A DNA stretch of 26,063 nt from Nitrospira sp. (GCA_040079895.1 JBEBJM010000001.1:1-26063), one strand, 5' to 3'; shown: positions 1,346 through 17,623, numbered from the stretch's first letter. The notes: generated by a model not told the origin, from the letters alone. Program-made: numbers and translations.

Positions 1346-2989
<1,644 letters not shown>

Positions 2990-3013
2990 TTATAAAATTT
3001 GTAAAGTTGAAAG

Positions 3014-3137
3014 TAAATCTCGTCGAGTCATATTTTTTTCTAGTATCTGCGGAACCTGTGAAAAGGTGAGCGGAAAGAAAATTTTGAGCACAAAATTATT
3101 CTGTTACTAGAAAAAATTATGAGGAGAAAGAGATTTA
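3014..3137. repeat. 124-bp imperfect intergenic palindrome between groES and groEL
   Basis: Outer arms TAAATCTC (3014-3021) / GAGATTTA (3130-3137); inner arms 3028-3045 / 3105-3122 pair at 17 of 18 positions. Confidence 0.75.
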
Positions 3138-3143
3138 AACATA

Positions 3144-3533
3144 TTATCTTAAAATTGCTAAAATATTTTCTTCTTTTATCAGGAAAAGCTCTTGGCCATC
3201 TATATTTATATCCTCATAACCATACTTTGAGAAAGCGACTCTGTCGCCAACTTTTACAGAAACAGGAACTAGCTTACCGTCACGACACTCTCCAGAACCA
3301 ACAGCTAAAACCATACCCTGCTCTGACTTTTCTTTCCCAGAATCAGGCAATATGATACCGAAAGAGTTTTTTGGTGTAAGCTCCTCTTTTGTAAAAGGTT
3401 TTATGAGAACTCTGTTACCCAAAGGTTGTATCTTTGAATCCGAAACGGTTGTGACTTTTTTAGCCACCACAGTATTCTTCTTTTTTGGTGACTTCGTTAC
3501 TTTTTTTGTAGGTTTTTTATTGGTCTTTTTCAT
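3144..3533 (-). CDS. groES: Co-chaperonin GroES with Lys-rich N-terminal extension
   Basis: KIQPLGNRVLIKP...GIILPDSGKEKSEQGMVLAVGSG...VKVGDRVAFSKYG...LIKEENILAIL; adjacent to groEL. Confidence 0.97.
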   Translation of the reverse strand: MKKTNKKPTKKVTKSPKKKNTVVAKKVTTVSDSKIQPLGNRVLIKPFTKEELTPKNSFGIILPDSGKEKSEQGMVLAVGSGECRDGKLVPVSVKVGDRVAFSKYGYEDINIDGQELFLIKEENILAILR

Positions 3534-3578
3534 ATGCGTATACTACATTAAACTAATAAAAAATACTTGGATGGCGAT

Positions 3579-3607
3579 ATTATAGTTACGTATCGGTAAA
3601 CCGTCAA
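3579..3607 (-). promoter_or_regulatory. Sigma70-type promoter for groES-groEL
   Basis: Minus strand TTGACG (3607-3602), 17-nt spacer, TATAAT (3584-3579). Confidence 0.75.
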
Positions 3608-3644
3608 CAATACGTGGGTTGCTATTTATCTGGTTTCTGGTAAT

Positions 3645-3887
3645 ATGGACACCATCATGAGTATTACTGAAAGTATCCCATATATTCAGATTGTATTGTC
3701 TATACTCCTTATTTTAGGCGTACTACTACAGCAATCCGAGGCAGGTTTGGGTGGAGCATTTGGAGGCGGTGACGCTTTCTCATCTGGCTACCACACAAAA
3801 CGAGGTGCGGAAAAAACAATTTTTATTGCTACTATTATAATAGCAGTATTGTTTGCCGTGACCTCTTTCAGTCTACTCCTAATATAA
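3645..3887 (+). CDS. secG: Preprotein translocase subunit SecG (true start may be the ATG at 3657)
   Basis: Two TM helices flanking LLQQSEAGLGGAFGG...HTKRGAEKTIF. Confidence 0.92.
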   Translation: MDTIMSITESIPYIQIVLSILLILGVLLQQSEAGLGGAFGGGDAFSSGYHTKRGAEKTIFIATIIIAVLFAVTSFSLLLI

Positions 3888-4055: not shown

Positions 4056-5798
4056 GTGAACCAAGAACAAATAAATCAAAAAATCAAAAAATGGAGAGTT
4101 CCGTATTCGGATAAGCTTATAAAAATAATAGACGCTTTCTCTCTGACCGAAAAAGTACTATTTTTCTCTTTTGTAACAATCTTCGCTTTGAGTGGAGTTA
4201 CTTTGTTGTACCAACTAAACAAAGCTTTTATGGTAGAGGTGCCGGATTATGGAGGAACTTTGACTGAAGGTGTTATAGGTTCTCCTCGTTTTATAAACCC
4301 GATATTGGCATCCAGTGATACAGACAAAGATTTATCTTCGCTTGTATACTCTGGTCTCCTAAAAGAAAACCGTGATGGAGAGCTGGTAACAGATCTCGCA
4401 GAATCTTATTTCATATCAGGAGACAACTTAACATATACTTTTGTACTAAAAGATAAAATATATTTTCACGATGGAACAAAAATAACAGCTGACGATATTG
4501 TGTTCACAATAGAAAAAGCTCAAGACCCGGATCTAAAAAGTCCACGTAAAGCGAACTGGGACGGAGTAAAAGTTGAGAGGATAGATGAAAGAAGAGTTTC
4601 TTTTACACTAAAGCAACCATACTCACCTTTTATACAAAATATGACTCTCGGCATACTACCTAAACACATCTGGAAATCAGCTAGTATCGAAGAGTTCCCT
4701 TTTAGCCAGTACAACACAAAACCTGTTGGCTCTGGAGAATACAAAGTGGACAACATATCATACACAGGAAGTGGTCTGCCTTCACAATACACCCTAAAAG
4801 CATACAACAAATATGCCCTCGGAGAACCGTACATCACAAACCTGATCATAAAAACATATCAAAACGAAAAAGACCTAACTGATGCTTACAAAAAAGGAGA
4901 TGTAGAAAGTCTGCATAGTATTTCACCAAAACAGTTACCAGAACTCAAAATAAAAGATGACCAAATAATCCTTTCGCCTCTACCTAGAATATTCGGGGTA
5001 TTTTTCAACCAAAACGTAGCCCCATCACTAGTATACAAAGAGGTTCGCCAAGCTCTGGATATGGCAACTGATAAGCAAGCAATAATAGATAACGTTATCG
5101 GCGGAATGGGACAAATAATAGATAGTCCAGTTCCAAAAGAAACTGTTCTAGAAAACAAATCTGTAAAGACTAGTCGCCTAGAAGAAGCAAAGGCTCTACT
5201 ATCTAAAAACGGATGGAAAGCAAACGCTGATGGTGTACTACAAAAGAAAGATAAAAAGAGCACTGCCACACTGGCGTTCTCCATCTCGACCGGAGACGCC
5301 CCAGAGTTAAAAGAAGCCGCTATGCTTTTGAAAAAACAATGGGAAGCTTTAGGGGCAAGGGTTGATGTGAAAATATTTGAGATCGGAGATTTAAACCAAA
5401 ACATTATACGCCCAAGAAAATACGATGCCCTACTGTTTGGAGAGGTTGTCGGAAAAGATCTAGACTTGTATCCATTCTGGCATTCATCTCAAAGAAACAC
5501 TCCCGGACTAAACATAGCTATGTACACAAACATAAAAGTAGACAGGATTCTAGAAAACATAAGAAAGACAACAGACAAAGATGAGCAGAAGAAATACATT
5601 GAAAACTTTGATAAAGAAATAAAAAACGATACTCCAGCGGTGTTCACATACTCACCATACTTTATATATATCGTTCCTAAAAAAGTTCACAATGTAAATC
5701 TAGGAGTACTGACGACACCCGGTGAAAGGTTCAATGATGTAAAGGATTGGTATATAGAAACAAATAACGTATGGAAAATATTTAAAGGAAAAAATTAA
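4056..5798 (+). CDS. Peptide/nickel ABC transporter substrate-binding protein (SBP family 5, OppA/DppA-like), membrane anchored
   Basis: N-terminal TM; GGTLTEGVIGSPRFINPIL, LVYSGLLK, DLAESY, TYTFVLKDKIYFHDGTKITADDIVFT, PVGSGEYK. GTG start. Confidence 0.9.
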   Translation: MNQEQINQKIKKWRVPYSDKLIKIIDAFSLTEKVLFFSFVTIFALSGVTLLYQLNKAFMVEVPDYGGTLTEGVIGSPRFINPILASSDTDKDLSSLVYSGLLKENRDGELVTDLAESYFISGDNLTYTFVLKDKIYFHDGTKITADDIVFTIEKAQDPDLKSPRKANWDGVKVERIDERRVSFTLKQPYSPFIQNMTLGILPKHIWKSASIEEFPFSQYNTKPVGSGEYKVDNISYTGSGLPSQYTLKAYNKYALGEPYITNLIIKTYQNEKDLTDAYKKGDVESLHSISPKQLPELKIKDDQIILSPLPRIFGVFFNQNVAPSLVYKEVRQALDMATDKQAIIDNVIGGMGQIIDSPVPKETVLENKSVKTSRLEEAKALLSKNGWKANADGVLQKKDKKSTATLAFSISTGDAPELKEAAMLLKKQWEALGARVDVKIFEIGDLNQNIIRPRKYDALLFGEVVGKDLDLYPFWHSSQRNTPGLNIAMYTNIKVDRILENIRKTTDKDEQKKYIENFDKEIKNDTPAVFTYSPYFIYIVPKKVHNVNLGVLTTPGERFNDVKDWYIETNNVWKIFKGKN

Positions 5799-7729: not shown

Positions 7730-8905
7730 ATGGATCGAATACTATTCCCTTTCAAGCAAAGTAAACTTCTAAACACTCTTTTCCTATCTAACGTCTTTAT
7801 ATCTTTTCACTATGCTTTAGTGATCTATATTAACTCTTCTTTTTTGAATGGTTTCTTCACTGAAACACAGGTCTCGGCGCTATATATTATTGGATCTATT
7901 ATAGACACAGTACTACTCCTAAACGCCTCAAAAATACTAGAAAAAATAGGTAGTTTTAACTTTGCCCTTTCTGTTATTTTGTTAGAGTTTGTTTCTACAG
8001 TTGGAATGGCGTTAGCCTACTCATCTTTTCTAGCTGGTCTATATTTTCTAATACACCTAATATCCATATCTCTTGTCCTTTTCAATATGGACGTCTTTAT
8101 AGAAAACGTCTCTGCGGATACGTCGACAACCGGGAGCGTGCGAGCGACTTATCTGACAATAACAAATATGACTATAGTTTTGGCACCAGTACTACTGTCG
8201 TTTATACTCACCGACAGTCACTACTACTATATCTACATAGCATCAGCTTTGTTTATGCTTCCTTTATGGAACCTAGTAAAAAAGTTCCGTTTTATAGAAA
8301 CAGCAAAAATACACCACATAAAAGTCAAAGAAACTTTATCAGAATATGTTAGAAATAAAGATCTCTACAACATATTTGTCTCGCAGTTTTTGCTCCAGCT
8401 TTTCTACGCATATATGGTTATATACACACCTATATATTTGGAAAAATACATAGGCTTTTCATGGCACGAGATAGGACTGATTTTCACTATAATGCTTTTG
8501 CCTTTTGTATTCTTTGAAGTACCTGTCGGAGAGTTGGCTGATATGAAATACGGAGAAAAGGAGTTTCTAACAATAGGTTTTATTATTATGGGAATATCTA
8601 CTCTTATTATCAGTTTTATCACCACAAAGGACTTCTGGCTCTGGGCAGTGATTCTTTTTGTAACTCGTATAGGTGCGAGTGTCGTCGAGGTTTCAAACGA
8701 AAGTTATTTTTTCAAACAAGTAAACAAAGAGAAAACCGACGTTATTAGTTTTTTCAGAGTAAGCCGTCCAGTGTCGTTTATCGTGGCACCTCTTTTGGCT
8801 ACACTAACTTTTCAATTCATCCCCTTCCAATATATTTTCATCATAATAGGATCTATTATGATTCTCGGCACACATTTTAGTTTAGCTTTGAAAGATACAA
8901 AATAA
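7730..8905 (+). CDS. MFS transporter
   Basis: 391 aa with about 12 hydrophobic segments; ASKILEKIGS and VPVGELADMKYGEK resemble MFS motif A loops. Confidence 0.88.
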   Translation: MDRILFPFKQSKLLNTLFLSNVFISFHYALVIYINSSFLNGFFTETQVSALYIIGSIIDTVLLLNASKILEKIGSFNFALSVILLEFVSTVGMALAYSSFLAGLYFLIHLISISLVLFNMDVFIENVSADTSTTGSVRATYLTITNMTIVLAPVLLSFILTDSHYYYIYIASALFMLPLWNLVKKFRFIETAKIHHIKVKETLSEYVRNKDLYNIFVSQFLLQLFYAYMVIYTPIYLEKYIGFSWHEIGLIFTIMLLPFVFFEVPVGELADMKYGEKEFLTIGFIIMGISTLIISFITTKDFWLWAVILFVTRIGASVVEVSNESYFFKQVNKEKTDVISFFRVSRPVSFIVAPLLATLTFQFIPFQYIFIIIGSIMILGTHFSLALKDTK

Positions 8906-8910
8906 ATATA

Positions 8911-10815
8911 CTATTTTAGAGCACCCAAAAGATCTTTGAGGTTTATGTAAGCCACATCTATAACATCGTCTCCGCCACCGTAGTACATATATATTTTGTC
9001 TCCCCTAACCACCGCACCACAAGGAAAAACGACACAGTTGAATATACCTTTTGTTTCGTATGGTAAAAGTGGCTCAAATATGTAATCTGTTGTTCGAGAT
9101 AAAACATTTGTTGGGTCTTTCAAATCAAGTAAAACTGCTCCAACTCTATAAACTGCGTCATCAGAAACACCATGATACAAAAGTAACCAGCCTTTAGATG
9201 TTTTGATAGGTGGAGAAGAAATACCTACTTTTTTTGAATCCCACATACCATGACGAGGAGAAAGTAAAACTATATTTCTAAAATTATTCCTCTCTTTGAA
9301 ACTCGGTGTATCGCCAAAATCAACACAGATTTTGTTGTCCACTCTATGAAACAACATATACTTTCCATTTACTTTTTCTGGATGAAGACAGGCGTCTTTA
9401 TCATCAACTCCATCCCTCGTAACCAAAACCGGTTTTTTCCAATTCCATTTTCTTGCTAGAAAATCTTTCTCCGAGATGGACGTCATCGCAGCCGATGGCG
9501 GGGTCATGCCGTTATATGCCACATAACACATATATATAGTGTTACCTATTTGGGTCAGGCGAGGATCCTCGCAACCAGAGTTACCGTTTGGTATTCTTTT
9601 TTCTTCAAAAGATTCTTTGGGTGTAAAAATTGGTTTTGGAGATTGATATGTTATGGTTGTTCCATCTTTGCTCTCTGCGTATCCTATGACAGAAGTATTG
9701 TCCTGTCCCATCGCCCTGTATAAAATATGAGTTTTGCCACCCAAAAAAATAGCTGCTGGGTTGAAAATGGCTTTTGACTCCCACGGTATAGCTGGCTGTG
9801 CTACCAGTAAAGGCCCCTCTGTCAGTCGTTTAAAACCATCCTCAATGGGTGGGATTTTCATGCTCAACAACAGCGGTTTTAAAGGAACCTCTGCAACTGC
9901 TGTTGTTGTATCTGTCGCTCCGTAGTATATAACTAGTTTATCTTTTCTTATTAAAGCCCCGCTTGGAAAAATAGTGTTTGTAACCTGACCGTATTTCTCG
10001 TATGACTCCTCTGGGATGAGCAGAGAGCCTCGGGTCTTCCCTGCTATTTTTCTTGGGTCTTTCAAATCCAAAAGAAGCGCACGAATACCGAAGACTTTGT
10101 TATTTGTAAAATAATCACGGATGTGTGAGTAGACGAAAAGCCAACCTTCTTTTGTTTTTATAGGAACAGCACCGACTTCTACCTGATCCTGCTCCAACCT
10201 AGGAATATGCAGAGTGTGTTTATCTATTTCTTTGTACCATTTTTCCCAATACTTTAGACTCCACATATCCTCTATTTTTTTGAACTCGGCTATGCCGATT
10301 TTGGCCAAATGACCATCGTCTGTATCAACAGCGAGCATAGCGACGTATTTACCATCTATTTTTTCTGGAAAAAGCATCATGGCTTTCGCATTGAAAGGGG
10401 TGATGAGGTGCTTTTCGGATATTGTTTTCATATCGCGACTTATAGCCAGACCTACTTTTATACCACTTCCGCCAAAAGGAAAAACTGAAAGTGCTGTATA
10501 AAAAATAAAATACTTACCATCGATTTTTGTTACTCTGGGATCCTCTAGTCCAAACCTCTCCCAAATATGTTCTGGCTTTATGAAAACTTCACGTTTTTTA
10601 AAGTTTATACCGTCCGAACTAACAGCCTGACCTATAACAGAAAGAGAAAAGTGGTTATTTTCAAAAGTCTCTGGTAGTGACTGTGCGCGATATAGTAGAT
10701 GTATATTTTTCCCAACGACTATTGGATTTGCATTGAAAGTAGAAAAGTTTTCGAACGAATGTTCTTTGATTGGAGAAAGTATCGGATTACTTTTTGAGCG
10801 TTTTACGACGAACAT
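8911..10815 (-). CDS. Tandem two-domain GH130 (beta-mannoside phosphorylase-like) protein
   Basis: Two repeats, each with FN[A/P], LYRA, EDPR, [F/H]PEK[I/V][D/N]GKY, PIKTxxGWL, LLDLKDP, FPxGA and YYGxxD. Confidence 0.9.
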   Translation of the reverse strand: MFVVKRSKSNPILSPIKEHSFENFSTFNANPIVVGKNIHLLYRAQSLPETFENNHFSLSVIGQAVSSDGINFKKREVFIKPEHIWERFGLEDPRVTKIDGKYFIFYTALSVFPFGGSGIKVGLAISRDMKTISEKHLITPFNAKAMMLFPEKIDGKYVAMLAVDTDDGHLAKIGIAEFKKIEDMWSLKYWEKWYKEIDKHTLHIPRLEQDQVEVGAVPIKTKEGWLFVYSHIRDYFTNNKVFGIRALLLDLKDPRKIAGKTRGSLLIPEESYEKYGQVTNTIFPSGALIRKDKLVIYYGATDTTTAVAEVPLKPLLLSMKIPPIEDGFKRLTEGPLLVAQPAIPWESKAIFNPAAIFLGGKTHILYRAMGQDNTSVIGYAESKDGTTITYQSPKPIFTPKESFEEKRIPNGNSGCEDPRLTQIGNTIYMCYVAYNGMTPPSAAMTSISEKDFLARKWNWKKPVLVTRDGVDDKDACLHPEKVNGKYMLFHRVDNKICVDFGDTPSFKERNNFRNIVLLSPRHGMWDSKKVGISSPPIKTSKGWLLLYHGVSDDAVYRVGAVLLDLKDPTNVLSRTTDYIFEPLLPYETKGIFNCVVFPCGAVVRGDKIYMYYGGGDDVIDVAYINLKDLLGALK

Positions 10816-10827
10816 AGTTTTATTTTA

Positions 10828-11868
10828 TCATAAATCTAGAAAAGCTTTTATATCTTCCGCTATTAAAGTATACGCTCGGACAAATGAATCATCTATGTGA
10901 GCATATAAAATACCCATACCTTTTCCAGTTTCGACGAACTGACTTGCAAATGTAATTGCTCGTCCACCATCTTTTCCTGCTTCACTATCTTGTATAAAAG
11001 GTTCTGGAGAAACCCAATTAATTTTACCCTTTTCATAATCGTATATATAAAGTCCTATAGAAAAATCTCCATACTTTGTTTTATCGTCACTTTTATGATT
11101 AGCTTCACAACCATTTATTACACCCAATAATTTTCCTTCACCAACATCAATAAAGTTTTTAGAAAAAAGCGGGCCAGGGGATGCATGTCCTGCTATCCAA
11201 GGTAAATCATGATCTGCTGGATGAAAAGCTATTTCTCCATACTCCCAATTACTACCCATATCTTTAACAACAGCAACTTTAATAACAGAATATGTTGTAT
11301 CAGTTTTTCTATCTCTAGACTCAATCAAATTATAACGAAAACCTTTACTATTTAATGGGGCGATCGAAACCTCTTTGGCACTATTACTATAACTACCAAT
11401 CAACACTGGTTCTGTCATTTCTAGAGAATCAATATCCTTTCCCACAGCGTGACCCAGATGCACCATAGTTTTACCAACTTTATTCATATCTTTACCAAAA
11501 TGTATTACTGGAATTGTAAAATACAGATGCAATAAACCTGTTATATCATCTATCCAAATGTCAGGGTCTTCTAACCCTAATATTTCCCCATTTTCTCCAA
11601 TAAGTCTGCTAATTATATCCTCTTCATTTTTTATTTTTAATCTCTCTCCTATTTTAAAATCATCTAATGATTCACCTGTAATTTTATGAAGTTCACTCCT
11701 GTCAATATTACCTTTTATTGATATATCTCCTGAACGACTTGTTATACAACGAACTACTCCATCTCTATAATTTGTCCTAGGGTCTAAGGTAATCGCCATT
11801 ACATGTGCGAAATTATTATCTTTCTCAATTACTTTTCCTGAATGCTGAATATATTTATTTTTTTTCAT
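10828..11868 (-). CDS. Divergent five-bladed beta-propeller glycoside hydrolase/phosphorylase-like protein
   Basis: GLEDPDIW, HASPGP, FSIGLYIYD, ITFASQF and ILYAHIDD occur in the same order as GH130 motifs but are divergent; embedded in the GH130 operon. Confidence 0.55.
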   Translation of the reverse strand: MKKNKYIQHSGKVIEKDNNFAHVMAITLDPRTNYRDGVVRCITSRSGDISIKGNIDRSELHKITGESLDDFKIGERLKIKNEEDIISRLIGENGEILGLEDPDIWIDDITGLLHLYFTIPVIHFGKDMNKVGKTMVHLGHAVGKDIDSLEMTEPVLIGSYSNSAKEVSIAPLNSKGFRYNLIESRDRKTDTTYSVIKVAVVKDMGSNWEYGEIAFHPADHDLPWIAGHASPGPLFSKNFIDVGEGKLLGVINGCEANHKSDDKTKYGDFSIGLYIYDYEKGKINWVSPEPFIQDSEAGKDGGRAITFASQFVETGKGMGILYAHIDDSFVRAYTLIAEDIKAFLDL

Positions 11869-11882
11869 ATTATTTATTTAGT

Positions 11883-13043
11883 TTAGACGGTTACTGGTGA
11901 GGGTGCAAGCTTACCTAAATCTAAAAACCAAAAGTATATAAACAGAAGCGCAGAGAGCAGAAATACAAACGGTAAATGCGTGTAAAGAAGTGCCACAACA
12001 ACATACAGAATCAACCGACCAGAGACATTTGGTATCTCCCGAAGTACTAGAAACTGAGCATCATCATAGCGACCGCTATTAAAAAGAGCTGATTGGTAAG
12101 GAACAAGAAAGATTTTTACTGATAAAGTCAGTAATACTATGGCTAGGTAAAACAACCACGGGCTAGACATAAACTGACCAACATAAAAAGAGTAAACCCA
12201 CACCATACTCACAGCCACAGCTCCAATTCTCATTAATTTCTGCCAATTCCACTTGTCCGTCAGTTTACCCAAAGTTAACGTGAAAAAAATACCCGTAACA
12301 GCAATCAGAGACCCTATTATTCCTATTTGAGCAACACTTAATAAGTTTATGTAGATAAAAATAACTAAGATTCCCCCGCCACCTTCAGCAAAACTACTAA
12401 TAATCTCCGGTAGAAAAAAACTCTTTGATCTGCGCCAGACTGTTAACATTGAATCCTTGGTAAAAATAAAATTTGTTTTTTCTGACCTTAGTGGCCACAA
12501 AGGAACTGAAGCCAAAAAAACTAGGAACATGGACATAATGAACAAGGTCGGGAATCCGAGTTTGCTTATGATAAAAGCCCCAATAACTGGGCAAAGTATT
12601 GTAAGTAATTTGGGATAGCTAGACAGCTTACTAAAAGATCTCCCCATACTATTTTTATCTGTATTCCTTAAAAATAGGATGTTTCGAGGAATAAAATAAA
12701 ATGCTGCATCCGAACCCATAAGCACTGGAATTATAAAAAATAAGAAATGGTGCGTTGGAAGAATAGTCATCAACCAAAGATTTGAGATTAGTAATATAAA
12801 CCTAATTTGTAAACAGTGAACCAATCCTATTCTATTTGAACAATAAATAGTGACGAACATCACCAATAAAAATGACAAATCTAGTATAAAAGACCACAGC
12901 ATTACCATGGGTACCGAATATCCAAGTTTAAGTAAAAAAACCGGAATAAATATATTAACAAAACCAAGACCAAAGTCGTTCAGGATAACCATCTGAAAAA
13001 TTCTGTGCAACTGAGATTTCTGGACGTCTATATTTTCTGACAT
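11883..13043 (-). CDS. MFS transporter
   Basis: 386 aa, about 12 TM segments; SNRIGLVHCL and LGKLTDKWNWQKLM motif A-like loops. Confidence 0.88.
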   Translation of the reverse strand: MSENIDVQKSQLHRIFQMVILNDFGLGFVNIFIPVFLLKLGYSVPMVMLWSFILDLSFLLVMFVTIYCSNRIGLVHCLQIRFILLISNLWLMTILPTHHFLFFIIPVLMGSDAAFYFIPRNILFLRNTDKNSMGRSFSKLSSYPKLLTILCPVIGAFIISKLGFPTLFIMSMFLVFLASVPLWPLRSEKTNFIFTKDSMLTVWRRSKSFFLPEIISSFAEGGGGILVIFIYINLLSVAQIGIIGSLIAVTGIFFTLTLGKLTDKWNWQKLMRIGAVAVSMVWVYSFYVGQFMSSPWLFYLAIVLLTLSVKIFLVPYQSALFNSGRYDDAQFLVLREIPNVSGRLILYVVVALLYTHLPFVFLLSALLFIYFWFLDLGKLAPSPVTV

Positions 13044-13061
13044 AAAATCACCGTGGTTTTA

Positions 13062-14981
13062 TTACACCTCCTTTAACTGATACTCCTTTAAATCACCAGT
13101 TTTTAGATATTTTAATAATTGTTTTATTGGTGTTTTTGCGACACATACCACCTTATCACCACCTCCATAGTATACATATAAATCATCACCGCGTATTATT
13201 GCGCCAGAAGCATAAACGACGCCTGGTTTTCCATCGTTTTCATAATGCATATCAGGAGAAAGTATAGGGTGAGCAGAACGATGCAGGACTTTTGTTGGAT
13301 CGTTTTTATCTAGAACCATCGCTCCAAGCCTGTATTTACCTGTATCAGATTTTTCCAAAGCGTGATACAAAAGGAGCCAGCCCATTTCTGTCTTTACTGG
13401 TGGAGGGCCAGAACCTTTAAGTAAAAAGTCCCAACTGTTTTTCCTGCCCGGTTGTGGACCCTCTGGTCTAGGACTATAAATAATATCGTCAAATGTATCT
13501 ATGTCGTCAACATAATCCACTAAAACTTTTGGACTAATGCTGTGAAGTATAGCGTATTTGCCGTTTATCTTTTCCGGAAAAAGAAGCCAGTTTTTTGATC
13601 TATTTTCTGGAGATGATATGAGTCTAGGTCTTTTCCAGAGCCATCTACCGGCTTTAAAGTCGTCCAGACTTATGGATGTAATAGCGATGCGCATTGACCA
13701 CCATCCCTCGAAAGCTGTGTACATCATATAGACTGTATTTTCTATCAAAACTATTCGAGGATCTTCTGCCCCACCCCATCCACCCCCTGATACGTAGATA
13801 TAAGGGTTATAAGCCTCTGGACCCATTGTTTTTCCCGCCTCCGGCATACCATAACCTCTGGCTGGTTCATATATAGGGTACGGAGATCTGTCTGTGAAAT
13901 GCGTGCCGTTTTTACTTTTTGCATAGCCTACTCGAGAAACACCATCGCCCCCTATGGCTCTATAAACTAGATGTATAGTGCCCTCATCGTCCTCTACAAC
14001 AGACGGGTTAAATGCGCCTTCATTTTCCCAATGGTTATGTTTCAAAGGCTCCAGAATAGGGTTATGCTCTGATCTCTCTAGTATTTTCGGATGAAAACGC
14101 GCGTCCTCCACCTCTCTAAACAAAATTGGGATTTTAGCAACAACCAAGTTAAAATCTGCTGTCATCCAGTATATAAGAAAACTTTTTCCCAAAGTCACAA
14201 AACCTATGGACTTTATAGGCATAGATTTTTCTTTTGCCTCCACCACCCCCTGCCATATAGGCATACCACTACGCCAGAGAATATGTTTTGGATTTTTCAC
14301 ATCGACTATCACAGCCCCCACCTGAAGCAAACTTTTTGATTCGTGTTGAACACTTGCGTCGTATATTAAAACCATACCCTCGTTTGTGACTGTTCCACCA
14401 ACTATAGATATTTTTTCCATATCAAACTGACCGTTTCGTGAAGTAAAAAGTAATGTTGGTTTTTCTTTCCACAAAGAAAGTGATGTTGATGACTGATGTT
14501 TTATAAACAAACCATCACGATATAGCTCGAACTTATCTTTTACTCTGTCATACAAAACAGTTGAGTGGGTAGAGTCGTCGGCTTTTATTTCGGACATAAC
14601 TCTCCACTCCAGTAAATCTTTTGAGCGAGCGACTACTAGGACAGCGCCAGACTTTGCGTTTAGATATTTATAATAAGTCAAAACGTAACCGTTTGGAGTA
14701 CGAGAAATAGAAAAATTGGAACAATTTTTTAGATTTTCTTTTCGACCCTTTAAGTCAACTAGAGAAACGGATGATGGAACTGGTGTAAAATCCAAACCAT
14801 CTCCACTGGCAAGTAAAACCAAAGAACTGGTTGTCTTTTTATCTACCCTAGAGAGCATACAAACGCCACCTTCTACACCTATAACAGAAAGAGGAATACT
14901 AGGAACTTTTTTCTGTACCGCACTCTTTTTTGCGACTTTTTTCTTGACTGTTTTTGTTTTTACAACTTTTTTCTTTTTCAT
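13062..14981 (-). CDS. GH130 family protein with degenerate N-terminal propeller and Lys/Val-rich N-terminus
   Basis: C-terminal domain has AFNPSVV, LVYRAIG, AEDPRIV, KNWLLFPEKINGKY, GSGPPP, LYHAL, YRLGA and YYGGGD; the N-terminal half keeps only LQVGAVIVDVKNPKHILWRS-type remnants. Confidence 0.88.
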   Translation of the reverse strand: MKKKKVVKTKTVKKKVAKKSAVQKKVPSIPLSVIGVEGGVCMLSRVDKKTTSSLVLLASGDGLDFTPVPSSVSLVDLKGRKENLKNCSNFSISRTPNGYVLTYYKYLNAKSGAVLVVARSKDLLEWRVMSEIKADDSTHSTVLYDRVKDKFELYRDGLFIKHQSSTSLSLWKEKPTLLFTSRNGQFDMEKISIVGGTVTNEGMVLIYDASVQHESKSLLQVGAVIVDVKNPKHILWRSGMPIWQGVVEAKEKSMPIKSIGFVTLGKSFLIYWMTADFNLVVAKIPILFREVEDARFHPKILERSEHNPILEPLKHNHWENEGAFNPSVVEDDEGTIHLVYRAIGGDGVSRVGYAKSKNGTHFTDRSPYPIYEPARGYGMPEAGKTMGPEAYNPYIYVSGGGWGGAEDPRIVLIENTVYMMYTAFEGWWSMRIAITSISLDDFKAGRWLWKRPRLISSPENRSKNWLLFPEKINGKYAILHSISPKVLVDYVDDIDTFDDIIYSPRPEGPQPGRKNSWDFLLKGSGPPPVKTEMGWLLLYHALEKSDTGKYRLGAMVLDKNDPTKVLHRSAHPILSPDMHYENDGKPGVVYASGAIIRGDDLYVYYGGGDKVVCVAKTPIKQLLKYLKTGDLKEYQLKEV

Positions 14982-15322
14982 TAGACTCTGTTGTATTTAT
15001 CCTCTATTCGGACAATATCATCTTCATCAAACAGACCTGTGGATATTTCAAGAACCATAACGTCATCTACCGGTGCAGAAATCCTATGTTTTGTATTTGG
15101 CGCTATTGTAAACTCATCTCCCTCTTTTGGGTTCTCAGTTTTGTCCCCCACTACAATTTCCGGATTACCTTTTATTATTCTCCAGAACTCCTGTCTGTGT
15201 GTGTGATACTGCAAACTAAACTCCTCACCCTTGTTAATATTTAAAATCTTCACTGTGGAAGGTTCATTGTTTGTAAAACGAATAAAAGACCCCCATGGTT
15301 TTTTAATGGTAGTAGGATTCAT
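14981..15322 (-). CDS. Stand-alone cupin, mannose-6-phosphate isomerase type II C-terminal-like
   Basis: KKPWGSF...VKILNINKGEEFSLQYHTHRQEFW...HRI...LEISTGLFDEDDIVRIEDKYNR. Stop overlaps the next start (TAATG). Confidence 0.88.
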   Translation of the reverse strand: MNPTTIKKPWGSFIRFTNNEPSTVKILNINKGEEFSLQYHTHRQEFWRIIKGNPEIVVGDKTENPKEGDEFTIAPNTKHRISAPVDDVMVLEISTGLFDEDDIVRIEDKYNRV

Positions 15323-15328
15323 AAGATA

Positions 15329-15337
15329 ATTATATCA
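15329..15337 (-). promoter_or_regulatory. Extended -10 leaderless promoter
   Basis: TGaTATAAT, then 6 nt, then the ATG at 15322. Confidence 0.65.
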
Positions 15338-15365
15338 TATGAATCAAAATACAAGCGAGCAATAA

Positions 15366-16124
15366 TCACAGATATTGTCTCAAAAAATCGATTGTTTGAT
15401 CTGGGCCATCCTCCTGAATATAATCAACGTCTGTTTTCTTTACTGGAGCATCATTTCCACCAGCATAAAGAGCGTCCCCAACGAAAATAATATCATCGTC
15501 TGTAACCTCTAAAATCTTTTTTATTTTGCCTATGGCATAGGCCTTATCTAGACCTTTGCGAGTTATGTCGATAGAAGTCATACCTCCAAAACTAATATCA
15601 AACTGTGGTATTTTGTCTTTTAGATACCCTGCGATTTTCTGTCTTTTACTTTTATCAGGATCCCAAGATTCTTTAATTTGTATAGGAGCTTCTTGGCCAC
15701 GTCCAGAGAAAGTTATTTGACTACCACGGTCCTCGATAAGACTTCCGTAAATGTCTTTTGGATTAAAGTCCAACCCTGACTGCACTACAGCTTCTTTTAA
15801 AGCATATGTTATGTTTTCTCTTTCTTGTGCATCCAAACTCTCGTTGTATAACTGTTTCCATTCTTTACCTATACTGTCATAAACAAAACAAGTTGTGCCC
15901 ATAGTTGGGAAAAGATACAAGTTTTTCAAGACTTCTGGTCCACAGTGAAGCTGGGACAGAAACTGTTTCTCGAACTGTGAAAATGCACCCCCAGAAACAA
16001 CCACTAAAATATGTTTTAAAAGTAGACTACATATAACCTCCGCCATCTCTGGAGAAAGTTTGGATTTACTAGGAGCTAGAGTCCCGTCCAAGTCACAAAC
16101 GATTACCTTTTTAGCATTAACCAT
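15366..16124 (-). CDS. HAD-IIB hydrolase, eukaryote-type phosphomannomutase-like
   Basis: CDLDGTLAPSK, VVSGG, IEDRGSQITFSGRGQEAP, GGMTSIDIT, DKAYA and FVGDALYAGGND. Confidence 0.85.
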   Translation of the reverse strand: MVNAKKVIVCDLDGTLAPSKSKLSPEMAEVICSLLLKHILVVVSGGAFSQFEKQFLSQLHCGPEVLKNLYLFPTMGTTCFVYDSIGKEWKQLYNESLDAQERENITYALKEAVVQSGLDFNPKDIYGSLIEDRGSQITFSGRGQEAPIQIKESWDPDKSKRQKIAGYLKDKIPQFDISFGGMTSIDITRKGLDKAYAIGKIKKILEVTDDDIIFVGDALYAGGNDAPVKKTDVDYIQEDGPDQTIDFLRQYL

Positions 16125-16183
16125 AATATATGCTAATATTATAACATTAAATTAAAGAATGTTAGTAAAATATAAAACAGACA

Positions 16184-16573
16184 ATGATAAAGAAAACGGT
16201 ATACTTTTTTGATCGATTAGAAGACAGGGTAAGATCTAGACTTAGCCGATCCCCTATTTTATACGCCTTTTTAGGAGGAGTTGGGGTGGTTTTGTTCTGG
16301 AGAGGTATATGGCATTTGGCTGATAACGTAAACATGGGAGCTATAGTTTCTGTTATATTGGGTTCAATAATATTACTTATAACTGGTATTTTTGTTTCTG
16401 CTTTTGTTGGTAACAGACTTATTATTTCAGGACTCTCTGGTGATAAAAAACTAGCAGAAAAAACTGTCGGTGAGATAGAGACCGAAGAAGATCAGTTACA
16501 AAGAATGCAAAAAACTCTAAACCGAGTAGAAAACAAAATAGATGAGATAGAAAACGAGCTTGATAAAAAATAA
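16184..16573 (+). CDS. Hypothetical membrane protein with C-terminal coiled coil
   Basis: Two hydrophobic segments followed by a charged heptad-like tail. Confidence 0.75.
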   Translation: MIKKTVYFFDRLEDRVRSRLSRSPILYAFLGGVGVVLFWRGIWHLADNVNMGAIVSVILGSIILLITGIFVSAFVGNRLIISGLSGDKKLAEKTVGEIETEEDQLQRMQKTLNRVENKIDEIENELDKK

Positions 16574-17050: not shown

Positions 17051-17623
17051 TTATATTGCTCTAGCTACTATCCCTATCAAAACAATACCGACAAAGTTAA
17101 AGAAAAAAGATATTGGGATAAACACAGACATTTTCATTTTCGAAAAACCAAGCAACCCAATACCCAACTCATCAGGAAGCGGAGAAGATATAATAAAACC
17201 ACCTAAAAGAAAAGTGAACCATCGAAAATATTTTAGTTTAAACAGCGCTCTCACCCTCTTCCACCAGCTCTCGTGTTTTACGAGCTCAACCAAATGCTCC
17301 GACAGCCTGTCTTCTATAAACCTAAAAATAATAACATCACCAACCACTGCACCGAGAGCTCCAAAAAAGGCTGTTAAAATAAGAGAGTTGGAATGAGCTA
17401 TCTCTCCCAAAGTCACTATAGCAGGAGCTGTTGTAAATACAGATGTAAAAAACATACCAGCAATAAAGCTTCCTGCAAACTTTAGACTGGCGGTAGAAGA
17501 GAGGAGGCTTTCTAGGGCACCTGTTTTAGAAAGCATAATAGCCACAAGAACACTCATTGCTATGATAGCAATATCTTGACGCACAAAACTGGATTGTGAG
17601 TGTAGTCTCATTTTAAAAAACAA
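17051..17623 (-). CDS. Hypothetical membrane protein, DedA/VTT-like
   Basis: Multi-TM; GALGAVVGDVIIFRF and SPLPDELGIGLLG resemble DedA/VTT folds. Confidence 0.6.
   Translation of the reverse strand: MFFKMRLHSQSSFVRQDIAIIAMSVLVAIMLSKTGALESLLSSTASLKFAGSFIAGMFFTSVFTTAPAIVTLGEIAHSNSLILTAFFGALGAVVGDVIIFRFIEDRLSEHLVELVKHESWWKRVRALFKLKYFRWFTFLLGGFIISSPLPDELGIGLLGFSKMKMSVFIPISFFFNFVGIVLIGIVARAI

What the first reader, a model, noticed from the sequence alone, without database searches (positions are those of the whole stretch)
7730..16124. Candidate uncharacterised mannoside phosphorolysis system: PMM + PMI-cupin + multiple GH130 domains + two MFS
Seen: a co-oriented, tightly spaced run (TAATG overlap; 18, 14 and 12 nt gaps) of HAD-IIB mutase-like, cupin, propeller-GH130, MFS, divergent propeller and GH130-GH130, closed by a convergent second MFS 5 nt away. 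That is five propeller domains in three proteins, none with an obvious signal peptide. Established: GH130 phosphorylases release mannose-1-P from beta-mannosides, PMM converts it to mannose-6-P and PMI to fructose-6-P, as in Bacteroides/Ruminococcus mannan pathways. Inference: an ATP-sparing route for a small-genome symbiont to import and ferment host or environmental manno-oligosaccharides. Alternatively it runs in reverse to build a beta-mannan reserve, loosely analogous to Leishmania mannogen. No GDP-mannose pyrophosphorylase or glycosyltransferase is in the window, which argues against ordinary envelope synthesis. Activity of the isolated cupin is unproven.
Basis: partly seen in the sequence, partly recalled or inferred. 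Interest (0 to 1): 0.72.

Follow-up and report, generated by a model that had tools for sequence, protein, structure and literature searches.

The report
Beta-mannoside phosphorylase operon in Patescibacteria
A tiny drinking-water bacterium carries a conserved operon that most likely splits beta-1,2-linked mannose sugars with phosphate and converts them to fructose-6-phosphate; the pathway is a known kind, but four of its five enzyme-like domains lack the normal phosphate-binding or catalytic residues.

Summary
Six co-oriented genes lie at 8911-16124 on the minus strand, with a convergent MFS gene at 7730-8905. They encode a PMM/alpha-PGM-type HAD-IIB mutase, a type-II-PMI cupin, a two-domain GH130, an MFS, a GH130-like propeller and a tandem GH130.

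The core is HAD, cupin, GH130 and tandem GH130. It is present in 37 of 41 genomes of the genus, and cupin and tandem GH130 are missing from the same four. It recurs in other Patescibacteria lineages. MFS_B and the 346-aa propeller are accessory (5 of 41). They sit in a variable slot that in relatives holds GH125 alpha-mannosidase, an extra GH130 or DUF5672.

The GH130 domains are nearest to beta-1,2-mannoside phosphorylases (Teth514_1788/1789). Only one of the five domains keeps the full phosphorylase signature. Two lack the phosphate-binding Arg, one has lost the catalytic Asp, and one carries invariant Glu residues at or next to that site.

The genome has no hit to NTP_transferase (the GDP-mannose pyrophosphorylase family), PGI, PFK or transaldolase. 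A PfkB kinase next to a class II aldolase could take up fructose-6-P.

Best reading is cytoplasmic mannoside catabolism (0.55). A self-made beta-mannan cycle is not excluded. This is a new variant of a known kind. Two other first-reader notes on this window cover sub-parts of it.

The parts
16138..16165 (-). Promoter-like site (CTAACA, 16 nt, TG-extended TATAAT) 14 nt upstream of the HAD start; likely operon promoter
   Evidence: Best-scoring minus-strand site in the scan (10 of 12, TG present). The scan as a whole found no more sites than shuffles, so this is only a consensus match.
15366..16124 (-). HAD-IIB phosphohexomutase of the eukaryotic-PMM / L. lactis alpha-PGM clade (252 aa, P0005)
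   Evidence: PF03332 44.7 bits (cut-off 22.4) and TIGR01484 67.5 bits. All 17 PDB hits are mutases: 4BND alpha-phosphoglucomutase at 4.5e-35, then PMMs at 1e-14 to 1e-6. Found in 32 of 41 genus genomes, always next to the cupin.
14981..15322 (-). Stand-alone type-II PMI-like cupin (113 aa, P0004)
   Evidence: PF01050 64.1 bits (cut-off 23.6). It matches the C-terminal PMI part of TIGR01479 GMP/PMI, positions 359-467. The HxH...E and downstream His metal motif is present. Found in 37 of 41 genus genomes, the same set as the tandem GH130.
14097..14894 (-). N-terminal degenerate GH130-like domain of the 639-aa protein (residues about 30-295); catalytic motif lost
   Evidence: NF052550 62 bits. 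hhalign gives 98.1% probability against the tandem-GH130 C-domain profile, with EDPR aligned to SNFS.
13062..14096 (-). C-terminal GH130 domain of the 639-aa protein ('partner' type); keeps the proton donor and the E/K pair but lacks the phosphate-binding Arg (HS for HR)
   Evidence: PF04041 140 bits and NF052550 209 bits. PDB 9FJ8 at 3e-49 with HR aligned to HS. The Arg-less state forms one clade of 29 of 30 tips.
11883..13043 (-). MFS_B transporter (386 aa), accessory gene in the variable slot
   Evidence: PF07690 42.9 bits. Generic MFS by Atlas. An MFS occupies this slot in only one other genome fetched (L049, 27% identity). GC is 0.33-0.35 against 0.38-0.41 in the flanks.
10828..11868 (-). 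346-aa GH130-like five-bladed propeller of an unnamed family (P0002), accessory gene in the variable slot; hydrolase-like active site predicted
   Evidence: No Pfam or NCBIfam hit. 109 representatives among 1.84 billion proteins. AlphaFold pLDDT 93.4. Foldseek top hits are all GH130, TM 0.6-0.7. Invariant E100, D101, K165, E166 and E183. hhalign places K165/E166 at the K/D site and E183/S184 at the HR site. Found in 5 of 41 genus genomes, always in the slot.
9850..10815 (-). N-terminal GH130 domain of the tandem protein (residues 1-322); keeps YRA and EDPR but lacks the HR arginine
   Evidence: PF04041 149 bits. Alignment to 7FIP and 9FJ8. The same state occurs in all 37 distinct N-domains of the motif table, which form one clade with support 1.0.
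8911..9849 (-). C-terminal GH130 domain of the tandem protein (residues 323-634); complete beta-1,2-mannoside phosphorylase signature
   Evidence: PF04041 195 bits and NF052550 255 bits. 9FJ8 Teth514_1788 at 1.5e-57 and 7FIP at 2.7e-55. YRA, EDPR, K-D, HR, YHG and GGxD are near-invariant across 35 orthologues.
7730..8905 (+). MFS_A transporter (391 aa), convergent neighbour; link to the operon unproven
   Evidence: PF07690 89.9 bits. It belongs to a Patescibacteria-specific MFS cluster with no substrate call. It is adjacent in the genus loci and in L018, but not in other families of the order or in other phyla.

Best explanation
This is a cytoplasmic operon for breaking down beta-1,2-linked mannosides.

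Proposed route:
1. The C-terminal domain of the tandem GH130 phosphorolyses beta-1,2-mannosides to alpha-mannose-1-phosphate.
2. The HAD-IIB mutase converts that to mannose-6-phosphate.
3. The small PMI-type cupin converts that to fructose-6-phosphate.
4. An unlinked PfkB-family kinase and the class II aldolase beside it could pass fructose-6-phosphate into lower glycolysis.

The other GH130-type domains lack the phosphate-binding Arg or the catalytic Asp. I read them as partners of altered mechanism: weak phosphorylase, hydrolase, or substrate-holding subunit of a covalent pseudo-dimer. They may widen chain-length range, much as the Teth514_1788/1789 pair does.

A variable slot between the two GH130 genes takes up accessory mannoside genes. 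Here these are an MFS transporter and a hydrolase-like GH130 relative.

Shown: gene order, family membership, residue states, co-occurrence, and which pathway families are found or not found. Inferred: substrate, direction of flux, every enzymatic activity, and any role of the MFS transporters.
For: GH130 identity and beta-1,2 signature. The criteria come from PMC7660257, PMC4599007 and PMC12814180.

The C-domain signature is conserved in 35 orthologues.

The core order HAD-cupin-GH130-tandem GH130 occurs across the genus, in other families of the order, and in Saccharibacteria, Nomurabacteria and other Patescibacteria loci.

Cupin and tandem GH130 are each present in 37 of 41 genus genomes and absent from the same four.

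The HAD enzyme is of mutase type.

PF00483 was not found in this MAG and was found in only 18 of 41 genus genomes. That makes GDP-mannose salvage or GDP-mannose-dependent synthesis unlikely.

In relatives, the slot holds GH125 alpha-mannosidase and extra GH130 genes, which is a catabolic flavour.

A PfkB kinase sits next to a class II aldolase in 5 of 5 genomes checked.

The GH130, PMM, PMI logic is established for Bacteroides and Ruminococcus (PMC4264767 introduction).
Against: No natural source of beta-1,2-mannosides is known for this habitat (drinking water).

No secreted glycanase or oligosaccharide-type transporter is present. Both MFS proteins are generic. In Chloroflexi and other distant lineages the GH130 pair sits among housekeeping genes with no transporter.

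Only one of the five domains has a full phosphate site.

The nearest solved relative of the mutase is a phosphoglucomutase. From memory of Neves et al. 2006, which I could not retrieve, it is glucose-specific.

In five genus genomes the mutase is replaced by an unrelated Cof-like HAD-IIB protein.

PFK, PGI and transaldolase were not found, and the PfkB kinase is unassigned.

Some slot genes in relatives look glycosyltransferase-associated (DUF5672).
Confidence: 0.55

Rival explanations
1. The operon runs a self-made beta-1,2-mannan or manno-oligosaccharide cycle, like a bacterial mannogen. Fructose-6-P is converted by the cupin and the mutase to mannose-1-P. Mannose-1-P is polymerised by reverse phosphorolysis, or by the Arg-less GH130 domains acting as transferases. 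The canonical phosphorylase domain later mobilises the polymer.
For: In distant lineages the cupin-GH130-tandem GH130 core has no adjacent transporter or secreted enzyme.

The Arg-less states of the N-domain and of the partner domain are each conserved as a single clade. They echo the Leishmania GT108 enzymes MTP1 and MTP2, which lack this Arg and are transferases only (PMC12814180).

Beta-1,2 GH130 phosphorylases have a weak glycosyltransferase side activity.

The module is retained in 600-700 kb genomes.

A ribosome hibernation factor gene lies next to the module in three loci.

Relatives of the 346-aa family sit beside GT4 genes, and a GT4-GH130 fusion exists.

A small nucleotidyltransferase lies directly upstream of the cupin in L020, L040 and L041.
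Against: No PF00483 sugar-nucleotide pyrophosphorylase was found in this MAG or in several 98-100% complete relatives that carry the module.

The own-genome homologue of the small nucleotidyltransferase lies near NAD-salvage genes and may be an NMN adenylyltransferase.

Phosphorylases normally run degradatively in cells (general knowledge).

GH125 alpha-mannosidase in the slot of relatives points to exogenous mannans.

GlpX-type FBPase was not found, so no gluconeogenic supply of fructose-6-P was identified. Other FBPase classes were not searched.

The authors of PMC12814180 themselves regard the glycosyltransferase side activity as possibly without physiological role.
Confidence: 0.2
2. The module scavenges host or prey surface glycans, such as mannosylated glycolipids, glycoproteins or capsule fragments obtained from the episymbiotic host. 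It does not use free environmental oligosaccharides. The main product is fructose-6-P or pentose precursors for biosynthesis rather than energy.
For: Distribution in Patescibacteria is patchy and lineage-specific: 12 full-length tandem copies in a sample of 400 genomes, against 37 of 41 in this genus.

The slot has variable accessory content (GH125, extra GH130, MFS), as expected if the substrate varies.

Transketolase is present while transaldolase, PFK and PGI were not found.
Against: The host is unknown. No uptake system can be assigned. This reading is hard to separate from the main one with sequence data alone.
Confidence: 0.15
3. The sugar handled is not mannose. The GH130 domains act on another beta-glycoside, the HAD enzyme is an alpha-phosphoglucomutase, and the cupin has a different isomerase or non-catalytic role.
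For: The best solved relative of the HAD enzyme is a phosphoglucomutase. The NCBIfam equivalog cut-offs for beta-1,2-mannobiose phosphorylase are not reached. GH130 specificities keep widening (PMC7660257).
Against: The proton donor, the -1 site motifs and the E/K pair match mannoside enzymes. The cupin carries the type-II PMI signature. PGI was not found in any of 41 genus genomes, so glucose-6-P would have no isomerase.
Confidence: 0.07

Closest known systems
Thermoanaerobacter sp. X-514 Teth514_1788/1789 beta-1,2-mannoside phosphorylase pair (GH130_6; PDB 9FJ8, 7FIP)
   Same: These are the nearest solved relatives of the three catalytic-looking domains (E 1e-42 to 1e-57). Both have two adjacent GH130 genes, cytoplasmic location, the E/K beta-1,2 signature, and an unknown natural substrate source.
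   Different: There, both enzymes are single-domain canonical phosphorylases. They lie in a cluster with an ABC importer, GH5, mannose-1-P guanylyltransferase and a GT4, read as GDP-mannose salvage (PMC4264767). Here the proteins have two domains each, and only one of the four domains is canonical. The neighbours are a mutase and a PMI cupin, and no guanylyltransferase family member was found.
Bacteroides / Ruminococcus GH130 mannoside catabolism (BfMGP, RaMP1/2, BT1033, UhgbMP) feeding PMM and PMI
   Same: The pathway logic is the same: phosphorolysis to mannose-1-P, then PMM and PMI to fructose-6-P, which saves ATP.
   Different: Those act on beta-1,4 linkages (Y/R pair). They use alpha-D-phosphohexomutase-type PMM and type I PMI encoded elsewhere, and depend on secreted mannanases and dedicated importers.
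Bacteroides GH130 beta-1,2-mannosidases BT3780 / BACOVA_03624 (GH130_3)
   Same: They are the model for GH130 members that lost phosphate ligands. The 346-aa family likewise has invariant Glu residues at or next to the phosphate site and keeps the Lys of the beta-1,2 pair.
   Different: The Bacteroides enzymes are secreted and encoded in yeast-mannan PULs. The 346-aa protein is cytoplasmic by inspection, shares only 13-17% identity with any GH130, and has no Pfam match. The Arg-less N and partner domains here carry A, L, S or G, not Glu, at the lost site.
Leishmania mannogen MTPs (GT108), dual glycosyltransferase-phosphorylases
   Same: Same fold, beta-1,2-mannan chemistry, and family members that differ by presence of the phosphate-binding Arg. 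MTP structures appear among the fold matches.
   Different: MTPs use GDP-mannose, and no PF00483 enzyme was found here. No polymer has been shown. Sequence similarity is far lower than to bacterial GH130_6.
Lactococcus lactis alpha-phosphoglucomutase PgmH (PDB 4BND) and eukaryotic PMM1/2
   Same: Same HAD-IIB mutase clade, same DxDGT core, similar length.
   Different: PgmH acts on glucose phosphates (from memory, not checked here). The enzyme here sits between a PMI cupin and GH130 genes, in a genus where PGI was not found.

Membership tests
GH130 (Pfam PF04041) | Sequence match above the gathering score | tested here: met
   Met for both halves of P0001 (149 and 195 bits) and for the C-half of P0003 (140 bits). 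Not met for the P0003 N-half or for P0002, which have no Pfam hit. Those two are related only by NCBIfam at 62 bits and hhalign at 98%, or by fold.
GH130 beta-1,2-mannoside phosphorylase (criteria of PMC7660257 and PMC4599007) | Proton-donor Asp present and no carboxylate base | tested here: met
   EDPR is conserved in P0001-N, P0001-C and P0003-C, and no Glu replaces the basic residues. Not met in P0003-N (SNFS). P0002 has the Asp plus invariant Glu residues.
GH130 beta-1,2-mannoside phosphorylase (criteria of PMC7660257 and PMC4599007) | Phosphate-binding Arg/His pair | tested here: not met
   Met only by P0001-C (HR, YHG). P0001-N has no Arg at that column. P0003-C has HS. Both states are conserved in orthologues. 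So P0001-C can be filed as a predicted phosphorylase, and the other domains cannot.
GH130 beta-1,2-mannoside phosphorylase (criteria of PMC7660257 and PMC4599007) | E/K pair at the +1 subsite (beta-1,2 linkage) | tested here: met
   The Glu before the catalytic Asp, and the Lys, are present in P0001-C and P0003-C. In P0001-N the Lys is shifted by one column.
GH130 beta-1,2-mannoside phosphorylase (criteria of PMC7660257 and PMC4599007) | No signal peptide | tested here: met
   Judged by inspection of the N-termini only. No predictor was available.
NCBIfam NF052550 beta-1,2-mannobiose phosphorylase (equivalog) | Score at or above the curated cut-off of 450 bits | tested here: not met
   432.7 bits for the whole two-domain P0001, 255 bits for its C-domain alone, and 209 bits for P0003-C.
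Phosphomannomutase, HAD-IIB type (PF03332) | Family match and mutase-clade relatives rather than Cof-type phosphatases | tested here: met
   44.7 bits against a cut-off of 22.4. All 17 PDB hits are PMM or alpha-PGM.
Phosphomannomutase, HAD-IIB type (PF03332) | Activity on mannose-1-P and mannose-6-P rather than glucose phosphates | not testable with these tools
   The nearest solved relative is a phosphoglucomutase. Only the gene context argues for mannose.
Type II mannose-6-phosphate isomerase cupin (PF01050) | Family match and metal-binding cupin motifs | tested here: met
   64.1 bits against a cut-off of 23.6. It aligns to the PMI part of TIGR01479, and the HxH...E...H motif is present. Activity of a stand-alone 113-aa cupin has not been tested.
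Mannogen-type GDP-mannose-dependent cycle (GT108-like) | A source of GDP-mannose (mannose-1-P guanylyltransferase) | tested here: not met
   PF00483 was not found in this 91%-complete MAG, and was found in only 18 of 41 genus genomes. Caveats: the MAG is incomplete, and a small CTP_transf_like enzyme of unknown substrate exists.
Thermoanaerobacter-type GDP-mannose salvage cluster | Guanylyltransferase, GT4 and ABC importer next to the GH130 pair | tested here: not met
   None of these is in the window or in the genus loci.

The most novel reading that the evidence does not exclude
Patescibacteria, and the Chloroflexi and DPANN-labelled genomes that share the module, make and recycle an internal beta-1,2-mannan or manno-oligosaccharide. 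That would be a bacterial counterpart of Leishmania mannogen. The conserved Arg-less GH130 domains would act as synthases or transglycosylases, and the canonical domain as the mobilising phosphorylase. The cupin and mutase would link the polymer to fructose-6-phosphate in cells where the classical upper-glycolysis enzymes PGI and PFK were not found.
Probability: 0.15. Interest if true: 0.85.

Novelty: new variant of a known kind. Interest (0 to 1): 0.55.

Why it matters
How ultra-small Patescibacteria obtain and route hexoses is poorly understood. In this genus PGI, PFK and transaldolase were not found. This operon would then be one of very few visible entries of a hexose phosphate into metabolism, and it costs no ATP for the first phosphorylation.

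For carbohydrate enzymology the locus offers three untested GH130 types:
- a tandem protein whose N-domain has lacked the phosphate-binding arginine since before the Patescibacteria and Chloroflexi copies diverged;
- a partner clade that lost the same arginine once;
- a Pfam-invisible, GH130-like family with invariant Glu residues at or next to the phosphate site.

Each bears on what separates phosphorylase, hydrolase and transferase activity on one fold. Recent structural work raises that question (PMC12814180). It also bears on the still unknown natural source of beta-1,2-mannosides for bacterial GH130_6 enzymes.

Tried and rejected
Transporter substrates: Pfam, NCBIfam and the protein atlas gave only generic MFS_1 for both transporters. 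The import role is left as inference.

Expression: 14 runs from four studies, mostly labelled drinking-water metagenome, hold the stretch. None is RNA.

Literature: no paper links GH130 with CPR beyond a passing count of two GH130 genes in a Microgenomates genome. I could not retrieve Neves 2006 or Nogly 2013 on the L. lactis mutase, so its glucose specificity is quoted from memory.

Fructose-6-P as a peptidoglycan precursor: GlmS was not found in 5 of 5 genomes. Only amidotransferase-domain hits below the cut-off appeared. Idea dropped.

Gluconeogenic supply: GlpX was not found. Other FBPase classes were not searched.

Small nucleotidyltransferase as a mannose-1-P activating enzyme: it lies directly upstream of the cupin in three distant loci. 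In this genome its homologue lies near NAMPT, NUDIX, NrtR and NAD kinase genes. It is kept as a lead only.

DUF5672 and a 302-aa slot ORF in relatives: no PDB sequence match. The atlas shows DUF5672 fused to GT2 and GT9 in phages and bacteria. Function is open.

The supplement of PMC12814180, with the residue table, is not held. I mapped residues from the printed PDB alignments instead. The R242-equivalent position is only approximately placed.

My first HMM for the cupin was contaminated by stop-to-stop ORFs running into GH130 and was discarded. Cupin counts rest on BLAST and on the genome search.

No structure was predicted for the two-domain proteins and no complex job was run. No binding claim is made.

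Full report
OBSERVATION

The window is contig 1 of a 605-kb, 91%-complete metagenome-assembled genome. Its nearest named relative is a Candidatus Zambryskibacteria MAG. Runs that hold the stretch are mostly labelled drinking-water metagenomes.

On the minus strand the gaps are:
- 43 nt from the HAD gene to the cupin;
- a TAATG stop/start overlap from the cupin to the 639-aa gene, read directly;
- 18, 14 and 12 nt between the next genes;
- 5 nt to the convergent MFS gene.

The best promoter-like site on the minus strand lies just upstream of the HAD gene. It has an extended -10 element at 16138-16165. The scan as a whole found no more sites than shuffled sequence, so this is only a consensus match.

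Housekeeping genes flank the cluster: groES/groEL, an SBP_bac_5 protein and RNase J on one side; murI, CTP synthase and ftsX on the other.

WHAT THE PROTEINS ARE

The 634-aa protein P0001 is two GH130 modules, with PF04041 scores of 149 and 195 bits.

The 639-aa protein P0003 has a C-terminal GH130 module (140 bits). Pfam misses its N-terminal domain, but that domain matches NF052550 at 62 bits. A profile of 14 orthologues aligns to GH130 at 98% hhalign probability.

The 346-aa protein P0002 has no family hit at all. An exhaustive search of 1.84 billion representatives found only 109 relatives. A model built on 24 of them has pLDDT 93.4 and is a five-bladed propeller. Its best 36 PDB matches are all GH130 enzymes or the related Leishmania MTPs, at TM 0.5-0.7 and 10-17% identity.

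So the count of five propeller domains in three proteins is correct. I saw no signal peptide in any of them, by inspection only.

The best family for every catalytic-looking domain is beta-1,2-mannobiose phosphorylase. The best solved relatives are Teth514_1788 and Teth514_1789 of CAZy subfamily GH130_6.

The HAD protein hits only mutases in the PDB. The L. lactis alpha-phosphoglucomutase 4BND scores 4.5e-35, and PMMs score 1e-14 and weaker.

The cupin matches the PMI domain of bifunctional GMP/PMI enzymes at 64 bits and keeps the metal ligands.

RESIDUE STATES

Published criteria separate GH130 phosphorylases from hydrolases and predict the linkage:
- a proton-donor Asp;
- absence of a carboxylate base;
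- an Arg/His phosphate pair, within three basic phosphate ligands;
- an E/K pair for beta-1,2 linkages.

These come from PMC7660257, PMC4599007 and PMC12814180. I aligned every GH130 domain from the window and 59 related loci to one profile and read those columns.

| Domain type | State of the key columns |
|---|---|
| P0001 C-domain | YRA, EDPR, K-D, HR, YHG and GGxD present; near-invariant across all orthologues |
| P0001 N-domain | Keeps YRA and EDPR; conserved AKAM for DKDA; no Arg at the HR column. Same in all 37 distinct sequences, from Patescibacteria to Chloroflexi |
| P0003 C-domain ('partner') | Keeps Asp, Glu, Lys and His. Reads HS, HG or HN in Patescibacteria, but HR in Chloroflexi, Gottesmanbacteria and an archaeal-labelled contig |
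| P0003 N-domain | EDPR replaced by SNFS, so catalytically dead |
| P0002 family | Invariant E100/D101 (EDPD), K165/E166 and E183. hhalign places these at the E-D, K-D and H-R sites |

Replacement of the basic phosphate ligands by carboxylates is what marks the Bacteroides beta-1,2-mannosidases. P0002 shows part of that pattern, with E183 at the HR site and E166 beside the retained Lys. The hhalign probability for the P0002 alignment is only 64%, so that mapping is tentative.

A FastTree of 120 distinct domains gave these clades:
- the N-type is one clade (support 1.0), with two single-domain slot GH130s of relatives as sister;
- the C-type is one clade (support 0.90);
- the Arg-less partners are one clade (29 of 30 tips, support 0.999).

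I defined the groups by 8 of the 312 columns used for the tree, so the test is not fully independent.

The asymmetry is therefore old and maintained, not decay. In Uhgb_MS, removing this Arg (R202A) lowers phosphorolysis 16-fold, and the Leishmania enzymes that lack it are transferases only. What the Arg-less domains do here cannot be told from sequence.

SYNTENY AND CO-OCCURRENCE

Across the genus the order is: orf190, (DUF1003), orf129, HAD, cupin, two-domain GH130, a variable slot, tandem GH130, then convergent MFS_A, RNase J and SBP5.

| Gene | Present in genus genomes (of 41) | Genomes lacking it |
|---|---|---|
| Tandem GH130 | 37 | G015, G016, G019, G023 |
| Cupin | 37 | the same four |
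| PMM-type HAD | 32 | those four plus G005, G010, G011, G012, G022 |

In four of the five extra genomes (G005, G010, G011, G012) I fetched the locus. There a different HAD-IIB protein of about 250 aa, whose weak PDB matches are Cof-type phosphatases, occupies the same position. Kin are not independent, so these counts show retention as a unit rather than a statistical association.

Independent support comes from other lineages:
- Other families of the order keep HAD-cupin-GH130-tandem, or HAD plus the GH130 pair (L055-L057).
- Saccharibacteria, Nomurabacteria, other Patescibacteria and a Nanoarchaeota-labelled contig keep cupin-GH130-tandem, with or without the HAD gene (L019, L020, L024, L025, L040, L041).
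- Chloroflexi keep only the GH130 pair, among housekeeping genes.

In an even sample of 400 Patescibacteria genomes, the full tandem protein occurs in 12 and any close GH130 in 33. The module is patchy in the phylum but nearly fixed in this genus.

That supports the finding.

WHAT IS NOT CORE

MFS_B and P0002 lie in a slot between the two GH130 genes that is empty in most relatives.

P0002 homologues occur in 5 of 41 genus genomes, always in that slot. An MFS is there in one other genome, at only 27% identity. GC drops to 0.33 across these genes.

In other relatives the slot holds a GH125 exo-alpha-mannosidase, an extra GH130, DUF5672, or an unassigned 302-aa ORF. The atlas shows DUF5672 fused to GT2 or GT9 domains in phages and bacteria.

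MFS_A is adjacent only among close kin. Neither MFS can be given a substrate.

METABOLIC CONTEXT

| Family | Result |
|---|---|
| PF00483 (includes mannose-1-P guanylyltransferase) | not found in this MAG; found in 18 of 41 genus genomes, and missing from several 98-100% complete genomes that carry the module |
| PGI | 0 of 41 |
| Transaldolase | 2 of 41 |
| PFK | not found in this MAG or in five near-complete relatives |
| GlpX-type FBPase | not found (0 of 5) |
| GlmS | not found (0 of 5) |
| Transketolase, GAPDH | present in this MAG |
| Class II aldolase | present, 5 of 5 |

In all five genomes the aldolase has an adjacent, divergently placed PfkB-family kinase. That kinase falls below every NCBIfam cut-off. 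It is the only visible candidate for phosphorylating fructose-6-P.

INTERPRETATION

The simplest reading is the established GH130 logic applied to beta-1,2-mannosides in the cytoplasm:
1. Phosphorolysis to mannose-1-P by the one canonical domain.
2. Conversion to mannose-6-P by the mutase.
3. Conversion to fructose-6-P by the cupin.
4. Entry to triose phosphates through the PfkB kinase and aldolase, or use by transketolase.

The missing guanylyltransferase family argues against the GDP-mannose salvage role proposed for the Thermoanaerobacter cluster. It also argues against a GDP-mannose-driven mannogen cycle. GH125 and extra GH130 genes in the slot of relatives give the locus a catabolic character.

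Several points weigh against full confidence:
- No substrate source or importer is identified.
- The distant versions of the module have no transport genes at all.
- Two conserved domain types have lost a phosphate ligand in the way transferase-only relatives have.
- Relatives of P0002 sit beside GT4 genes, and a GT4-GH130 fusion exists.
- The mutase's specificity is unproven, and the mutase is replaceable.

I put catabolism at 0.55, an internal beta-mannan cycle at 0.20, host-glycan scavenging for biosynthesis at 0.15, and a non-mannose substrate at 0.07.

COMPARISON AND NOVELTY

The pathway type is known. What differs from every described GH130 system:
- the host, an ultra-small genome where no match to the usual upper-glycolysis enzyme families was found;
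- both GH130 proteins being covalent two-domain proteins with a single canonical site between them. GH130-GH130 proteins were rare in CAZy: only 6 of 1592 family entries were multi-modular at all (GH130-GT81 or GH130-GH130). I found no functional study of them in my searches;
- a single-origin Arg-less partner clade;
- a Pfam-invisible GH130-like family;
- direct operonic coupling to a HAD-type mutase and a stand-alone PMI cupin.

I rate it a new variant of a known kind.

Two other first-reader notes on this window cover sub-parts: the asymmetric tandem GH130 and the divergent low-GC propeller. My tests agree with both.

Noticed in passing
G000 contig 8 (L066) 1583-2566(-) and 2789-3655(+): A PfkB-family sugar kinase of unassigned specificity lies divergently next to a class II ketose-bisphosphate aldolase. 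The same pair is adjacent in all five genus genomes checked. No PF00365 (PFK-family) match was found in this MAG or in five near-complete relatives. It may be the missing fructose-6-P kinase.
   Followed up: partly
L071 6146-6895(-), L072 6873-7625(-), L073 6595-7350(-), L074 6550-7302(+): These four genus genomes (G012, G005, G011, G010) lack the PMM-type HAD. A different HAD-IIB protein of about 250 aa, with only weak Cof-phosphatase-like PDB matches, occupies exactly the same position upstream of the cupin. G022 also lacks the PMM-type HAD, but its locus was not fetched.
   Followed up: partly
L050 5437-6810(-), L052 7197-8570(+); L048 5966-7024(-), L052 6131-7177(+); L048/L049/L054 DUF5672 ORFs; L053 6014-6922(+): The slot between the two GH130 genes is a hot spot. 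Relatives carry GH125 alpha-mannosidase (524-544 bits), an extra single-domain GH130 sister to the N-type, DUF5672 proteins, or an unassigned 302-aa ORF.
   Followed up: partly
L020 7977-8447(+), L041 7917-8444(+), L040 2155-2628(+); own genome L067 4034-4519(-): A small CTP_transf_like nucleotidyltransferase lies directly upstream of the cupin in three distant Patescibacteria loci. Its best model is heptose-1-P adenylyltransferase domain II, at 77-89 bits and below the cut-off. The homologue in this genome lies elsewhere, near NAD-salvage genes.
   Followed up: partly
window 14903-14978 (residues 2-27 of the 639-aa protein): The two-domain GH130 starts with a tail of about 26 residues that is very rich in lysine. 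It is not a signal peptide and is poorly conserved in length among orthologues. Purpose unknown.
   Followed up: no
L025 8361-8759(+), L041 11963-12361(+), L020 11960-12343(+): In L025 and L041 a ribosome hibernation factor (S30AE/HPF) gene directly follows the tandem GH130. A similar-sized ORF sits in the same place in L020 but was not scanned.
   Followed up: no
L077 12906-12974 (797-aa gene running off the locus); L076 1096-8862: A GT4-GH130 fusion protein, and a locus where a P0002-family member overlaps the end of a GT4 gene and lies near another GH130, a PIG-L deacetylase and a GHMP kinase. Another P0002 relative sits beside a glycerate kinase.
   Followed up: no
window 4056-5798(+): An SBP_bac_5 solute-binding protein (oligopeptide/nickel type, below all equivalog cut-offs) is conserved next to RNase J and MFS_A across the genus. 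No ABC permease genes lie in the window.
   Followed up: no
window 16184-16573(+) and 17051-17623(-): Two conserved ORFs without any family hit (129 aa and 190 aa) accompany the operon's upstream end throughout the genus. The 129-aa gene is divergent from the HAD gene.
   Followed up: no
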